A stretch of DNA of 64,000 nt. Origin: a virus. Positions 11,693-26,600 of the stretch are shown here, in pieces. Below the pieces are notes generated by a model, which made no database searches, was not told the DNA's origin, and was given only the letters and a program-made list of their open reading frames with translations. A program made the translations under genes and the position numbers. The stretch is taken from IMG/VR virus record IMGVR_UViG_3300050120_000210, positions 1 through 64,000 of that record, one strand, 5' to 3'. Numbering within the stretch: position 1 is the first letter of the stretch; each line of letters opens with the position of its first letter.

Positions 11693-12010
11693 ATGATCGT
11701 CCTTCCCATCATATACTACATCGTGTGGGCGCTTCTTGCAGCCTACGGATGGAAGAATTTCTTCCGTGACACGCTTCTCCCCGTTGAAGGAAGCAACGCG
11801 CTGACGCTTGCTTTCTTCTATCTTCTGGGAGTGGGCGGCTTCGTGCTGGGATTCTTGCTCATCCTGCAATGGGTGGAATGGCTGCCGTCGTTCCTCAACA
11901 ACATGGAAAACAACACGAAGTGGTTCGTGCGGATTTTCCTGCTGGTCTGGCCGCCCTATGCCTACGCCCTCGTTTTTCGAGCGTGGCGGAAGCGGCAACG
12001 AATCGTCTAA
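11693..12010 (+). CDS. Membrane protein
   Basis: Three hydrophobic segments; AAGGAAG RBS. Confidence 0.6.
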   Translation: MIVLPIIYYIVWALLAAYGWKNFFRDTLLPVEGSNALTLAFFYLLGVGGFVLGFLLILQWVEWLPSFLNNMENNTKWFVRIFLLVWPPYAYALVFRAWRKRQRIV

Positions 12011-12221
12011 TGCACCATCTCGCAGACTTCCTCGCGCGGGAAGCGGCCTTCATTTCCGGCATCCCTCCGTGGGGCTGGGCGCTGCTACTGTGCCTGCTGA
12101 TCTGGTTGGGAATCACGTCGATGTTTCAGCCGCCCCGCTGATCTCGTAAACGAATTGCAATTACGGTGAGATGCTCCTAATATGGGGGTCTCAGACTTGA
12201 CGGCGTGGGAGTCTCTAGCAC

Positions 12222-12352
12222 GCAGGAATGGTGGAATTTGGGCATACACAGGGGTGTGGGTAAGGACCCTCACTTCGGTTGGGAAACGCGGGCGACCGCC
12301 TCCCGGCTGCCTAACATGCGGGTGTTTGCTGGTTCGAATCCAGCTTCGTGAT
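12222..12352 (+). ncRNA. tRNA-like structured RNA with expanded central domain
   Basis: D-arm-like TGGTGGAATTTGGGCATACAC, perfect T-arm GCTGG-TTCGAAT-CCAGC (12328-12344), imperfect acceptor stem, two extra hairpins in place of an anticodon arm; TTGACG at 12197 upstream. Confidence 0.55.
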
Positions 12353-12397
12353 TGGCATGTGAGTGTCGGAGTGACGCCCGGCTCAAGGATGAGAACT

Positions 12398-12724
12398 ATG
12401 GTGGCGAAAACCTACGACCCGAAAACTATGGCGCTCGCTGCCGAATATCCCTTTGAGGTGATGGTGCAATCTAGCACCGATCCTGTCGGGTCGCGGCAAG
12501 GGTTCGGCGTGAAGCTGGGAGTTTCGAGCCGTGGTTCGGGCAAAGTCAACGATAGCGGGTTCGATAATGCCGTTAGAGAAATGATGGACTGGTGTAACGA
12601 GAATTGCGTTTTCTTCTGGATGCTGGGGCCGGTTCTTCCGATCAAAGTGTTCGAGACGTGGACATACAATTTCGCCTTCGTAGACGAACAAGACGCGATG
12701 TTTTTTAAGCTGCGGTGGCAATGA
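12398..12724 (+). CDS. Small-protein paralog family member carrying an 18-codon copy of the prohead protease motif
   Basis: Ends YNFAFVDEQDAMFFKLRWQ; contains GVKLGVSSRGSGKVNDSG. Confidence 0.65.
   Translation: MVAKTYDPKTMALAAEYPFEVMVQSSTDPVGSRQGFGVKLGVSSRGSGKVNDSGFDNAVREMMDWCNENCVFFWMLGPVLPIKVFETWTYNFAFVDEQDAMFFKLRWQ
12505..12558 (+). repeat. 54-nt direct repeat, copy 1 (copy 2 at 26342-26395)
   Basis: CGGCGTGAAGCTGGGAGTTTCGAGCCGTGGTTCGGGCAA[A/C]GTCAACGATAGCGG, 53/54 identical. Confidence 0.95.
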
Positions 12725-13947
12725 AATCCGAACTGATCCTTATGTTGCAAGAGCGTGGTTTCATCAACCAAGCGACTAACCTTGAGGGGTTGGATGCGCT
12801 GGCGCTTGAGCAGAAAATCACGAGCTACATCGGTTTCGATTTGACCGCCGACAGCTTGCACGTCGGCTCGCTGGTGCAGATCATGTTGCTGCGTCACATG
12901 ACAAAGCTCGGCCACGATCCCTTGATCCTCTTGGGTGAGGCGACCACGCGCATTGGCGATCCGTCCGGCAAGAGCGCGGCAAGGCCGATGCTCACCCGTG
13001 ACCAGATCGAGCACAACCGTCTGGGCATCGAAAAAGTTTTCCGCAAGTTCGTGGACAATCCGACGTTCGTTTCGAACGCCGCATGGTTCGACGATGACAC
13101 GACTCTGTTCGGTTACCTGCACGACTACGGCCCGCATTTTTCCATCAACCGGATGCTCACGTTTGATTCGGTGAAGTCGCGCCTGCGTGGGAACTCGACG
13201 CTGTCGTTCCTTGAGTTCAACTACATGCTCATGCAGGCCATCGACTTCTTCAAGCTGTCTGAAACCATGGACTGCGTGTTGCAGATCGGCGGCTCGGATC
13301 AGTGGGGCAACATCATCAACGGTGTCGAACTGGTTCGTCGAAAGAGCAGCCGTGAGGTGTTCGGGCTGACCACTCCGCTGATGACCAACTCGGCCGGGGA
13401 GAAAATGGGCAAGACCGCCGATGGCGCCATCTGGCTCGACCCGGATAAAACCTCGGCGTTTGAGTTCTGGCAGTTCTGGCGGAACGTGGAAGATGTGAAG
13501 GTCGGAGAGTTCCTTCGCCTGTTCACCGACCTCGATCTCGATGAAATCACGCGTCTGGAAATCCTCGGTGGTCAGGAACTCAACGAGGCCAAGAAAATCC
13601 TCGCGACTGAGGTGACGGCCATGGTCCACGGTAGGGCCACCGCTGCACACGTTGCGCTGCTCACCACGGGCGGTAACGTCGATCCCTGCCCGGATAGTAT
13701 GCCGATGCACATTATCCCGTCAGCGGCCTTCTCTGCGGGCATTACGCTCGCTCAAATCCTTCTCGACAGCAAGTTGGTCACGTCGAAGGGGGAAGCTGAT
13801 CGAATGGCCGCTAACGATGGTGTGAAGATCAACGGGCACATCGTCAACGACGTGCGTGAGGTTCTTCCTCGCCATGCGTTCGAGGACAACAGCTTCCTGC
13901 TCTCCGTGGGCAAGAAGAAGATGATCGCCGTGAAGATCGAGGACTGA
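12721..13947 (+). CDS. tyrS: Tyrosyl-tRNA synthetase
   Basis: YIGFDLTADSLHVGSL (HIGH-type), IGDPSG, QIGGSDQWGNI, KMGKT, C-terminal S4-like domain. Confidence 0.96.
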   Translation: MKSELILMLQERGFINQATNLEGLDALALEQKITSYIGFDLTADSLHVGSLVQIMLLRHMTKLGHDPLILLGEATTRIGDPSGKSAARPMLTRDQIEHNRLGIEKVFRKFVDNPTFVSNAAWFDDDTTLFGYLHDYGPHFSINRMLTFDSVKSRLRGNSTLSFLEFNYMLMQAIDFFKLSETMDCVLQIGGSDQWGNIINGVELVRRKSSREVFGLTTPLMTNSAGEKMGKTADGAIWLDPDKTSAFEFWQFWRNVEDVKVGEFLRLFTDLDLDEITRLEILGGQELNEAKKILATEVTAMVHGRATAAHVALLTTGGNVDPCPDSMPMHIIPSAAFSAGITLAQILLDSKLVTSKGEADRMAANDGVKINGHIVNDVREVLPRHAFEDNSFLLSVGKKKMIAVKIED

Positions 13948-25964: not shown

Positions 25965-26600
25965 ATGTCCATGTTTCTTTCTGAACGTCTGACTTTCGAC
26001 CAAGCCCAGATCATCGTTGAATCGATGAACGAGGGTGAGGGCGATAACGCCAAGAAGAAACTGTTCATGTCCGGTGTCTTTATTCAGGGCGGCGTTCGCA
26101 ACCTGAACCAGCGTGTCTATCCCGTCCGTGAAATCTCAAAGGCTGTTGAAAACGTCAACGACATCCTCACCAAAGGTGAGAGTGTTCTTGGTGAACTCGA
26201 CCATCCCGAAGAACTGACGATCAATCTCGACCGTGTTTCCCACATGATTACTAAGATGTGGATGGACGGCAATACTGGGATGGGCAAGCTGCAAATTCTC
26301 CCGACCCCGCTCGGAGAAATCACCCGCACGTTGCTGGAAAGCGGCGTGAAGCTGGGAGTTTCGAGCCGTGGTTCGGGCAACGTCAACGATAGCGGCGAAG
26401 TCTCGGACTTCGAAATTATTACTGTCGATATCGTTGCACGCCCCAGCGCCCCCAATGCCTACCCGAAGCCGGTCTACGAAGCACGTAACAGTCGTCGTGG
26501 CGCCGTCATCGAAGACCTCGCCCGAGCGGTGTCGAATGATCCCAAGGCACAGAAGCATCTCCACAAGGAGCTTCTGACGTGGATCAACAACCTAAAGTAA
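25965..26600 (+). CDS. gp21: Prohead protease
   Basis: NLNQRVYP, GELDHP, LGVSSRGSG, DIVARPSAPNA. Confidence 0.95.
   Translation: MSMFLSERLTFDQAQIIVESMNEGEGDNAKKKLFMSGVFIQGGVRNLNQRVYPVREISKAVENVNDILTKGESVLGELDHPEELTINLDRVSHMITKMWMDGNTGMGKLQILPTPLGEITRTLLESGVKLGVSSRGSGNVNDSGEVSDFEIITVDIVARPSAPNAYPKPVYEARNSRRGAVIEDLARAVSNDPKAQKHLHKELLTWINNLK
26342..26395 (+). repeat. 54-nt direct repeat, copy 2 (inside the gp21 active-site region)
   Basis: 53/54 identical to 12505-12558. Confidence 0.95.

What the first reader, a model, noticed from the sequence alone, without database searches (positions are those of the whole stretch)
12222..12352. tRNA-mimic RNA with two extra hairpins replacing the anticodon arm, upstream of tyrS
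Seen: a class-II-like D arm (TGGTGGAATTTGGGCATACAC) and a perfect T arm (GCTGG TTCGAAT CCAGC) about 78 nt apart. Between them lie hairpin GGGGTG-T-GGGT-AAGG-ACCC-T-CACTTC and hairpin GGTTGGGA..GCGG-GCGA-CCGC..TCCCGGCT with a GNRA tetraloop. The acceptor stem pairs 5 of 7, no CCA is encoded, and TTGACG lies 25 nt upstream. It is too short for tmRNA and has no 7-nt anticodon loop. Inference: a ncRNA keeping the tRNA elbow, such as a decoy for anticodon nucleases or tRNA-sensing defences, a processing signal, or a regulator of the tyrS unit.
Basis: partly seen in the sequence, partly recalled or inferred. Interest (0 to 1): 0.75.

Follow-up and report, generated by a model that had tools for sequence, protein, structure and literature searches.

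The report
tRNA-Leu-derived RNA heading phage tyrS operon
A giant soil phage carries a conserved 131-base RNA that keeps the outer shape of a leucine tRNA but has three hairpins where the decoding arm should be, sitting in the leader of the phage's own tyrosyl-tRNA synthetase operon; it is a real structured RNA that almost certainly cannot decode, and its job (processing signal, regulator or decoy) is still open.

Summary
Bases 12222-12352 form a tRNA frame: a 7-position acceptor stem with 5 Watson-Crick pairs, a class-II D arm and a perfect T arm. The frame encloses two long hairpins.

ARAGORN at default settings and Rfam call nothing here. I could reach only one other copy, in IMG/VR contig 3300009177_000068. 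There the element is 93% identical, against 72-78% for the flanking genes. All 7 substitutions in stems keep pairing (P=0.0002), and 4 pairs change on both sides.

The frame is closest to phage tRNA-Leu(UAA). Hairpin 1 aligns with the Leu anticodon arm, but the UAA sits in a 6-nt loop on an 11-bp stem. The discriminator is U and no CCA is encoded, whereas the phage's tRNA-Val and tRNA-Asn genes encode CCA.

The element lies between a conserved promoter-like site and ORF108, whose stop overlaps the tyrS start. The 5' leader is 34/35 identical and can pair with the ORF108 Shine-Dalgarno region.

Best reading, at 0.4: a non-decoding tRNA-shaped module cut out by tRNA-processing enzymes. Rivals are a TyrRS-binding operator and a trans-acting decoy.

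The scan had earlier noted tRNA mimics in other phages.

The parts
12155..12183 (+). Promoter-like site, TTGCAA-N17-TAATAT.
   Evidence: Read. The hexamers and the 17-nt spacing are kept in the second contig (TTGCAT-N17-TATGAT), while the spacer between them has diverged. The site scores 8 of 12, below the scan tool's 9-of-12 threshold. It is unverified.
12187..12221 (+). Conserved 5' leader. Bases 12187-12200 are complementary to the ORF108 Shine-Dalgarno region.
   Evidence: The leader is 34/35 identical between the two contigs. RNAalifold predicts 12 invariant pairs between 12187-12200 and 12383-12397. The duplex energy of -18.6 kcal/mol is reached by 4% of shuffled leaders and 3% of genomic 35-mers, so the support is weak.
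12222..12228 (+). Acceptor stem, 5' strand (GCAGGAA).
   Evidence: It pairs 5 of 7 with 12345-12351. Pair 3-70 changes from A-U to G-C in the second contig. The strand resembles the T4 tRNA-Leu acceptor GCGAGAA.
12231..12249 (+). Class-II, Leu-type D arm: 3-bp stem, G13.A22, and a loop carrying the GG of the elbow.
   Evidence: It aligns almost base for base with phage tRNA-Leu D arms. The stem is invariant; the loop has one substitution and one 1-nt deletion.
12251..12276 (+). Hairpin 1: an 11-bp stem with a U.U mismatch and a 6-nt loop, UAAGGA. It is the homologue of the tRNA-Leu(UAA) anticodon arm.
   Evidence: Two pairs change on both sides: G-C to A-U and G-U to C-G. MAFFT places its UAA under the UAA anticodon of the phage tRNA-Leu genes.
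12278..12307 (+). Hairpin 2: a lower stem of 7-8 bp, an internal loop, then 4 bp closed by the GNRA loop GCGA.
   Evidence: In the lower stem U-G becomes C-G. In the inner stem G-C becomes U-A (in alignment A2 this pair is offset by a gap).
12306..12322 (+). Hairpin 3: 4 bp with the 7-nt loop CUAACAU. It is either anticodon-arm-like or the homologue of the variable arm.
   Evidence: ARAGORN reads it as the anticodon arm of tRNA-Val(AAC) once 12251-12305 is deleted. The covariance model aligns real tRNA anticodon arms to it. It is invariant, so there is no covariation test. It overlaps the base of hairpin 2 by 2-3 nt, and an alternative register exists.
12328..12344 (+). T arm: GCUGG-UUCGAAU-CCAGC.
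   Evidence: Read. It is a perfect 5-bp stem with a canonical T loop. Only loop position 60 varies.
12345..12352 (+). Acceptor stem 3' strand (UUCGUGA) plus the discriminator U. No CCA follows.
   Evidence: Read. The phage's tRNA-Val(GAC) and tRNA-Asn(GUU) genes do encode CCA.
12365..12382 (+). Trailer hairpin, 5 bp with an 8-nt loop, just before the Shine-Dalgarno sequence. It is not a terminator because no U run follows.
   Evidence: U-G becomes C-G in the second contig, and two loop positions vary. No terminator-like site is found between the element and ORF108.
12385..12724 (+). Shine-Dalgarno AAGGA (12385-12389) and ORF108 (12398-12724), a small protein of unknown function.
   Evidence: Only one homologue was found, 53% identical and 79 aa long. 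There are no Pfam or PHROG hits. Its stop overlaps the tyrS ATG (ATGA) in both contigs.
12721..13947 (+). tyrS, a bacterial-type tyrosyl-tRNA synthetase with the C-terminal S4-like domain.
   Evidence: PF00579 matches at 4e-70 and PF22421 also matches. The closest cellular relatives are Caulobacterales, at about 50% identity.

Best explanation
The element is a non-decoding, tRNA-shaped RNA derived from a phage class-II tRNA-Leu(UAA) gene.

It keeps the parts that tRNA-handling enzymes read: the acceptor/T-arm stack and the D-loop/T-loop elbow. Its anticodon loop has been closed into an 11-bp hairpin, and the variable region has grown into two further hairpins.

It is transcribed from a conserved promoter-like site as the first part of the ORF108-tyrS transcript.

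The most likely working, which is inferred and not shown, has three steps:
1. RNase P cuts at 12221/12222.
2. A 3' tRNA-processing nuclease (RNase Z or RNase E) cuts near 12352.
3. This releases a stable RNA of about 131 nt, sets the 5' end of the tyrS-operon mRNA, and removes the 35-nt leader that can otherwise pair with the ORF108 ribosome-binding site.

Because the ORF108 stop overlaps the tyrS start, this would tie TyrRS output to tRNA-processing activity. What the released RNA does afterwards is unknown.
For: Shown:
- The RNA is real and constrained. It is 93% identical between two contigs whose flanking genes are 72-78% identical.
- No stem substitution breaks a pair (P=0.0002).
- Both-sided changes occur in the acceptor, hairpin 1 and hairpin 2.
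- The frame is Leu-type. The best matches of model R1 outside the family are all tRNA-Leu genes: T4 tRNA-Leu at 23.9 bits, and the L148, L141 and L133 Leu genes at 27-32 bits. The alignment with these genes agrees.
- It does not look like a decoding tRNA. ARAGORN at default settings and Rfam tRNA both miss it. The UAA sits in a 6-nt loop. G1.A72 and G4.G69 are kept in both copies. The discriminator is U73. No CCA is encoded, whereas the phage's tRNA-Val and tRNA-Asn genes encode it.
- It belongs to the operon. The conserved block begins at the promoter-like site, while the gene upstream differs between the two contigs. There is no terminator before ORF108. The ATGA overlap between ORF108 and tyrS is present in both contigs.
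- It is not coding in the second contig.

Suggestive:
- The leader is 34/35 identical.
- A 12-bp leader:Shine-Dalgarno pairing is predicted.
- The mean predicted probability that the Shine-Dalgarno bases are unpaired rises from 0.40 in the full transcript to 0.72 after a cut at 12353.

Precedent:
- Plant mitochondrial t-elements set mRNA ends through RNase P and RNase Z (PMC1920247).
- In more distant huge phages, tyrS lies directly behind tRNA arrays.
Against: - There are no transcript data.
- Only two sequences exist. Hairpin 3, the D stem, the T stem and the leader:Shine-Dalgarno helix are invariant and therefore untested by covariation.
- The leader:Shine-Dalgarno duplex is only marginally better than chance (p about 0.03-0.04).
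- The thermodynamic minimum-energy fold does not form the acceptor and D stems. The tRNA-like fold is about 5 kcal/mol above it.
- A pure processing signal would not need three conserved inner hairpins.
- The two acceptor mismatches may weaken RNase P recognition.
- The phage encodes a PF01743 nucleotidyltransferase, so the missing CCA is not proof against charging.
Confidence: 0.4

Rival explanations
1. A cis-acting operator. The tRNA-shaped leader is bound by the phage TyrRS, or by another tRNA-binding protein, as a tRNA mimic. Binding stabilises the closed leader:Shine-Dalgarno form and represses ORF108 and the coupled tyrS. This would be feedback control like the E. coli thrS operator.
For: - The element heads the tyrS operon, and the whole 5' UTR, not only the tRNA part, is about 93% conserved.
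- The hairpin 1 loop contains G-U-A-A, the core of a tRNA-Tyr anticodon loop. It sits beside a long second arm.
- From my own knowledge of the 1H3E structure, bacterial TyrRS reads the anticodon stem plus the long variable arm with its C-terminal domain. The phage enzyme has that domain (PF22421).
- One ARAGORN deletion variant of the second contig reads hairpin 1 as tRNA-Tyr(GUA).
- A pairing that masks the Shine-Dalgarno sequence is predicted.
Against: - The frame is Leu-type, not Tyr-type.
- The discriminator is U, not the A73 that bacterial TyrRS needs.
- The GUA sits in a 6-nt loop without a U33.
- Host Caulobacterales tyrS loci and 34 other phage tyrS loci have no such leader, so it is not a general tyrS device.
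- The element lies 45 nt from the Shine-Dalgarno sequence, unlike the thrS operator.
- The single Tyr call is 1 of 77, and ARAGORN proved permissive in this test.
Confidence: 0.2
2. A trans-acting tRNA mimic. After release, the stable tRNA-shaped RNA acts as a decoy or sponge for a host factor that reads the tRNA elbow or acceptor, for example a tRNA-targeting defence nuclease. Its position before tyrS only reflects the clustering of translation genes. This does not exclude the processing step of the main explanation.
For: - The elbow and acceptor are kept while decoding features are lost.
- Oversized tRNA-Leu-framed genes that standard finders miss also lie inside tRNA arrays of unrelated phages, at L134:4950-5073 and L141:2175-2295.
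- T4 rnaC (139 nt) has a similar layout with a perfect T arm. It is a stable RNA of unknown function (PMC9697503).
Against: - No target is known.
- The strong conservation of the 35-nt leader and of the trailer is not explained by a released RNA alone.
- The other oversized elements share only the tRNA-Leu frame, so they may be unrelated.
- Anticodon nucleases need an anticodon loop, which hairpin 1 lacks.
Confidence: 0.2
3. A working decoding tRNA. Either it is tRNA-Val(AAC), with a 55-nt two-hairpin insert between positions 26 and 27 that is kept or spliced out, or it is an odd tRNA-Leu(UAA).
For: - Deleting 12251-12305 leaves exactly 76 nt, which ARAGORN at default settings calls tRNA-Val(AAC) with U33, A37 and a 5-nt variable loop.
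- This is the dominant solution in a deletion scan: 111 of 156 positives in the window and 75 of 77 in the second contig.
- From my own knowledge, A35, C36 and G45 are tRNA-Val identity elements, and they are present.
- The phage encodes a PF01743 (CCA-adding type) enzyme.
Against: - The Leu-type class-II D arm does not fit a class-I tRNA-Val.
- The deletion test is permissive. Other oversized elements gave many different 'tRNAs' in the same test.
- The second contig's version fails ARAGORN at default settings even after deletion.
- No group I intron signal is found and no bulge-helix-bulge motif is visible. The insert is fully taken up by two self-contained hairpins that covary.
- The acceptor mismatches G1.A72 and G4.G69, the U73 discriminator and the missing CCA all argue against charging.
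- By inference, an insert at 26/27 would sit where the ribosome contacts the D stem.
Confidence: 0.08
4. A decaying tRNA-Leu pseudogene with no present function.
For: - The acceptor mismatches, the missing CCA and the lost anticodon loop look like decay.
- Only two genomes carry it. The 561-kb relative lacks it.
Against: - It is more conserved than the neighbouring protein genes.
- All stem substitutions are compensated, and the mismatches themselves are conserved.
Confidence: 0.04

Closest known systems
Class-II tRNA-Leu(UAA) genes of T4-like and other large phages (Rfam RF00005)
   Same: - The acceptor sequence type, U8-G9 and the 3-bp D stem with a GGAAUUGG-type loop are shared.
- The T arm and the start of the anticodon stem are shared.
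- The UAA lies at the homologous place.
- These genes are the best matches of model R1 outside the family.
   Different: - The anticodon loop is closed into an 11-bp hairpin with a 6-nt loop.
- There are two further hairpins where one variable arm is expected.
- The discriminator is U73 instead of A73, and there are two acceptor mismatches.
- No CCA is encoded.
- Rfam and ARAGORN at default settings do not call it.
Plant mitochondrial t-elements (Forner et al. 2007, PMC1920247), and by analogy mascRNA-type tRNA-like processing signals
   Same: It is a tRNA-shaped, non-decoding structure placed next to an mRNA, where cuts by RNase P and RNase Z would define the mRNA ends.
   Different: The kingdom and the enzymes differ. 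Cleavage is not shown here. The inner hairpins are far more elaborate and are conserved.
Phage T4 rnaC (species 1 RNA, 139 nt)
   Same: - It is a stable small RNA of a T4-type phage, encoded with the tRNA genes.
- It has a similar length and a terminal stem enclosing two hairpins.
- It has a perfect T arm with a UUCGAAU loop.
- Its function is unknown (PMC9697503).
   Different: - It has no D arm.
- There is no sequence similarity beyond the T arm: R1 gives 7.8 bits for the T arm only.
- It lies in a tRNA cluster, not in an mRNA leader.
E. coli thrS translational operator (a tRNA-anticodon-arm mimic controlling its own synthetase; from my own knowledge)
   Same: A tRNA-like RNA sits in the leader of an aminoacyl-tRNA synthetase operon, with possible control at the ribosome-binding site.
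   Different: - Here the whole tRNA frame is kept and the anticodon loop is lost, the reverse of thrS.
- The frame is Leu-type although the enzyme is TyrRS.
- An extra ORF lies in between.
tRNA-like module inside this phage's GOLLD RNA, and bacterial YrlA/Y RNAs
   Different: The host RNA and the topology differ. In YrlA the ends emerge from the anticodon side. There is no Rfam match to either.

Membership tests
Canonical tRNA (Rfam RF00005 / ARAGORN) | A cloverleaf that scores above the family threshold. | tested here: not met
   ARAGORN at default settings finds 0 genes in the window. Rfam gives no tRNA match even at E<=10 on 12000-12600. Only ARAGORN in intron mode at 95% threshold makes a call, an unconvincing 'Pro(GGG) with intron'.
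Canonical tRNA (Rfam RF00005 / ARAGORN) | A 5-bp anticodon stem with a 7-nt loop directly after position 26. | tested here: not met
   The hairpin that follows position 26 has 11 bp and a 6-nt loop. A 7-nt loop exists only in hairpin 3, 55 nt further on.
Canonical tRNA (Rfam RF00005 / ARAGORN) | T arm, D arm and the elbow nucleotides U8, A14, G18-G19, U54-U55-C56 and G53-C61. | tested here: met
   Read. They are invariant in both copies.
Class-II tRNA-Leu | A Leu-type D arm and acceptor. | tested here: met
   Alignment A5. R1's best hits outside the family are tRNA-Leu genes.
Class-II tRNA-Leu | The A73 discriminator needed by LeuRS (from my own knowledge) and a usable anticodon loop. | tested here: not met
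   U73 is present in both copies, and the UAA lies in a 6-nt loop.
tmRNA | A tRNA-Ala-like end plus a tag reading frame and pseudoknots, about 350 nt in all. | tested here: not met
   ARAGORN's tmRNA search and Rfam are both negative. The element is 131 nt.
T-box riboswitch (RF00230) | Stem I with a specifier loop, the conserved T-box sequence, and an antiterminator or Shine-Dalgarno switch. | tested here: not met
   There is no Rfam match at E<=10 and no terminator.
Intron-containing tRNA | A group I intron core, or a bulge-helix-bulge motif at the junctions. | tested here: not met
   There is no Intron_gpI match. At 55 nt the insert is too short. It consists of two closed hairpins whose pairs covary, which leaves no junction helix.
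t-element / tRNA-like processing signal | A tRNA-shaped structure adjoining an mRNA on the same transcript. | tested here: met
   There is no terminator between the element and ORF108, and the promoter-like site upstream is conserved.
t-element / tRNA-like processing signal | Actual cleavage by RNase P and RNase Z at its ends. | not testable with these tools
thrS-type synthetase operator | Specific binding of the cognate synthetase, with repression of translation. | not testable with these tools
   Only indirect hints exist: the GUAA in the hairpin 1 loop and the predicted Shine-Dalgarno pairing.
T4 rnaC (species 1 RNA) | Sequence or model homology. | tested here: not met
   With filters off, R1 matches only the T arm of rnaC, at 7.8 bits.

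The most novel reading that the evidence does not exclude
The whole 210-nt leader (12187-12397) is a new kind of control device for a phage aminoacyl-tRNA synthetase operon.

In this reading, a tRNA-Leu-derived mimic sets whether a 5' anti-Shine-Dalgarno segment keeps the ORF108-tyrS ribosome-binding site shut. The mimic would act through how it is handled: cut by RNase P, or bound by TyrRS or another tRNA-binding factor. The phage would then couple synthetase output to the state of the host's tRNA-processing or charging machinery.

The oversized tRNA-Leu-framed genes in other phages (L132 type, L134, L141) might be members of the same unrecognised class of six-way-junction tRNA mimics.
Probability: 0.15. 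Interest if true: 0.8.

Novelty: new variant of a known kind. Interest (0 to 1): 0.55.

Why it matters
Phage tRNA look-alikes are turning up repeatedly, but almost none has a known job. This one is unusually tractable for three reasons:
- It has a clear ancestry, from tRNA-Leu(UAA).
- Its architecture is supported by covariation.
- It has a fixed place at the head of an operon whose product, TyrRS, is itself a tRNA-binding enzyme.

If it is a processing or regulatory device, it would be the first tRNA-mimic leader described for a phage synthetase gene. It would also show how giant phages wire their own translation genes into host tRNA metabolism.

If it is a decoy, it gives a defined RNA to test against defences that target tRNAs.

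It also shows that standard tRNA finders miss a set of oversized tRNA-framed genes in phage genomes.

Tried and rejected
**Known families**
- Rfam found nothing at gathering thresholds over the whole window. At E<=10 on 12000-12600 it gave only two chance hits outside the element.
- The ARAGORN tRNA and tmRNA searches at default settings found nothing.

**Protein-coding reading**
- The 180-codon frame 12182-12724 is not kept in the second contig. There, single-base indels occur and the homologous ORF starts at the equivalent of 12398.

**Repeated motif or mobile insert**
- The leader and promoter motifs are unique in the 149-kb record.
- An nhmmer hit at 38151-38086 (E=0.07) lies inside a 237-codon ORF and was dismissed as chance.

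**Inheritance with tyrS from the host**
- No match was found in 80 tyrS loci from genome contigs, mostly Caulobacterales.

**More homologues**
- No homologue in the GenBank phage collection, by blastn on the element.
- The closest phage TyrRS there is 46% identical, by tblastn.
- Four DNA patterns on IMG/VR and one on JGI metagenomes returned only the one known contig.
- Model R1 found nothing in the 561-kb relative, nothing in two other related contigs, and nothing in 34 other phage tyrS loci apart from ordinary tRNAs.

**Transcript evidence**

**'Delete 55 nt and get tRNA-Val' as proof of an intron**
- A deletion scan showed that ARAGORN accepts many different solutions once the acceptor, D and T arms are present. 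I treat this result as weak.

**TTGACG as a -35 box**
- No -10 element lies at 16-18 nt.

**Leader:trailer pairing beyond the Shine-Dalgarno region**
- Four trailer substitutions have no compensating change in the leader.

**ORF108 as a clue to function**
- It has no Pfam or PHROG family.
- It has one distant paralogue hint, next to tRNA-Val.

Full report
**Setting.** The window is the first 64 kb of a 149-kb IMG/VR viral record that CheckV rates as 26% complete. It is therefore a fragment of a very large phage. The TyrRS of a 561-kb contig is 60% identical to this phage's enzyme.

The finding lies in a 256-nt gap between an ORF ending at 12141 and a 108-codon ORF that starts at 12398. That ORF's stop overlaps the ATG of a bacterial-type tyrS at 12721-13947, which matches PF00579 at 4e-70 and PF22421. 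The same ATGA overlap occurs in the only related contig.

**Observation.**
- acceptor GCAGGAA/UUCGUGA, with 5 of 7 pairs and the mismatches G1.A72 and G4.G69;
- U8 and G9;
- a 3-bp D stem whose loop carries the GG of the elbow;
- hairpin 1 (12251-12276);
- hairpin 2 (12278-12307), with a GCGA tetraloop;
- a perfect T arm with loop UUCGAAU;
- discriminator U, with no CCA.

ARAGORN at default settings and Rfam find nothing, even at E<=10.

It has a 7-nt loop with U and A at the positions of U33 and A37, and it lies exactly 5 nt before the T stem.

**Is it real?** A protein-guided search found one related contig, IMGVR_UViG_3300009177_000068.
- The whole gap is conserved there.
- The 131-nt element is 93% identical, and the 35-nt leader is 34/35 identical.
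- The flanking coding DNA is 72-78% identical, ORF108 is 53% identical in protein, and the gene immediately upstream is not homologous at all.
- Sixteen columns differ in the element. Seven lie in stems and none breaks a pair.
- Pairs 3-70 of the acceptor and two pairs of hairpin 1 change on both sides. The inner stem of hairpin 2 also changes, from G-C to U-A.
- Slid controls give no such changes.
- Random placement of the substitutions breaks 6.4 pairs on average. Zero broken pairs has P=0.0002.

The D stem, hairpin 3, the T stem, the leader and the Shine-Dalgarno region never vary. They are constrained in sequence but untested as pairs.

The frame that runs through the element in the window is not kept in the second contig.

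**What it derives from.** I built a covariance model, R1, from the two copies.
- Its best matches outside the family are all class-II tRNA-Leu genes: T4 tRNA-Leu at 23.9 bits, ahead of tRNA-Ser at 16.6 bits, and tRNA-Leu genes of other large phages at 27-32 bits.
- In a MAFFT alignment with eight phage tRNA-Leu genes, positions 1-34 align nearly base for base. The UAA in the loop of hairpin 1 falls under the UAA anticodon. The sequence just before the T stem aligns with the 3' side of the Leu variable arm.

So hairpin 1 is the anticodon arm, lengthened from 5 bp with a 7-nt loop to 11 bp with a 6-nt loop (UAAGGA). Either hairpin 2 or hairpin 3 is the variable arm, and the other is an addition.

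**Is it a decoding tRNA?** Deleting 12251-12305 leaves exactly 76 nt, which ARAGORN at default settings calls tRNA-Val(AAC). The second contig's version passes only at a lowered threshold.

A deletion scan shows this is the dominant solution for both copies. The same scan shows the test is permissive, because other oversized elements yield many different 'tRNAs'.

Several points argue against a tRNA-Val:
- A Leu-type class-II D arm does not belong to a class-I tRNA-Val.
- The insert is two closed, covarying hairpins with no group I or bulge-helix-bulge features.
- The acceptor mismatches are kept in both copies, and the discriminator is U.
- The phage's tRNA-Val(GAC) and tRNA-Asn(GUU) genes encode CCA, while this element does not.

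The phage does encode a PF01743 nucleotidyltransferase, so the CCA argument is not conclusive. I rate decoding at about 0.08.

**Context and likely working.**
- The conserved block begins at a promoter-like pair: TTGCAA-N17-TAATAT at 12155-12183, and TTGCAT-N17-TATGAT in the relative. The spacer between the hexamers has diverged. The site is below the scan tool's threshold.
- There is no terminator between the element and ORF108. The element is therefore the first part of the ORF108-tyrS transcript.
- RNAalifold pairs the first 14 nt of the leader (12187-12200) with 12383-12397, which cover the Shine-Dalgarno AAGGA and the bases up to the AUG.
- This duplex is only marginally better than chance, at p about 0.03-0.04. 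The mean predicted probability that the Shine-Dalgarno bases are unpaired rises from 0.40 in the full transcript to 0.72 after a cut at 12353.
- The near-perfect conservation of the leader does ask for an explanation.
- In more distant huge phages, tyrS lies directly behind arrays of ordinary tRNA genes. A tRNA-derived element at this place therefore has a natural origin.
- Neither host-type tyrS loci, mostly Caulobacterales, nor 34 other phage tyrS loci, nor the 561-kb relative carry it.

Taken together, my best reading is a non-decoding tRNA-shaped module. RNase P and a 3' tRNA nuclease would cut it out of the operon precursor, as happens with plant mitochondrial t-elements (PMC1920247). This would release a stable RNA of about 131 nt and free the mRNA from its anti-Shine-Dalgarno leader. 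Every step after 'conserved tRNA-shaped RNA in the operon leader' is inference.

**Rivals.**
- A TyrRS-binding operator is attractive because hairpin 1 shows G-U-A-A next to a long arm, the surface that bacterial TyrRS reads. But the frame is Leu-type and the discriminator is U.
- A trans-acting decoy is compatible with processing. It fits three things: this phage's second CCA-less tRNA look-alike inside GOLLD, T4's rnaC (function still unknown according to PMC9697503), and other oversized tRNA-framed genes.
- Simple decay is contradicted by the conservation.

**Limits.**
- Only two sequences could be reached.
- The minimum-energy fold differs from the tRNA-like fold by about 5 kcal/mol.

**Verdict.** This is a genuine, conserved, tRNA-Leu-derived RNA with a new inner architecture, placed in the leader of a phage tyrS operon. 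It is a new variant of the known kind 'phage tRNA-like RNA / t-element'. Its function is open.

Noticed in passing
L132:2608-2722 (+); same sequence in L138, L144, L147, L151: A 115-nt tRNA-Leu-framed gene. Its 5-bp 'anticodon stem' encloses about 47 nt (two hairpins) in place of a 7-nt loop. ARAGORN at default settings misses it; Rfam tRNA scores 39.9 bits. Three group I introns lie in the same locus.
   Followed up: partly
L141:2175-2295 (-): A 121-nt element with a perfect 7-bp acceptor, an encoded ACCA and a Leu-type D arm. Three hairpins precede the T arm, one of them with a T-loop-like UUCGAUU. It lies 9 nt upstream of tRNA-Leu(UAG). Neither ARAGORN nor Rfam calls it.
   Followed up: partly
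L134:4950-5073 (-): A 124-nt element between tRNA-His and tRNA-Thr in an 18-tRNA array. Its minimum-energy fold is itself an acceptor, a 3-bp D arm, three hairpins and a T arm. Neither ARAGORN nor Rfam calls it.
   Followed up: partly
L145:5827-5949 (-): A tRNA-Leu-framed element whose D loop is split by a 28-nt AT-rich insert and whose anticodon region is odd. ARAGORN does not call it.
   Followed up: no
window 12482-12568 (ORF108 residues 29-57): ORF108 carries a 29-residue insert that is absent from its only homologue. An earlier first-reader note says 12505-12558 is a 53/54 copy of 26342-26395 in the prohead protease gene. I did not check that copy.
   Followed up: partly
G000:C1:105392-105445 (outside the window): A weak match (E=0.06) to the C-terminal motif of ORF108, about 280 nt downstream of tRNA-Val(GAC). 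ORF108 may belong to the expanded small-protein family noted elsewhere in this genome.
   Followed up: no
G000:C1:140932-141300 (outside the window): A PF01743 (CCA-adding / poly(A) polymerase family) domain at 97 bits in a 389-codon frame. The 561-kb relative has one too.
   Followed up: no
window 12261-12266: The hairpin 1 loop, UAAGGA, contains the same AAGGA as the ORF108 Shine-Dalgarno sequence and is complementary to the 3' end of 16S rRNA. In the relative the loop is UAAGGC. It could be a ribosome standby site or decoy, or simply a remnant of the Leu anticodon loop.
   Followed up: no
L135:251-375 and L143:1587-1711: An element of about 150 nt ending in a T arm plus CACCUCC-A-CCA, a tmRNA-like 3' end. 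It is far shorter than a tmRNA, and ARAGORN does not call it.
   Followed up: no
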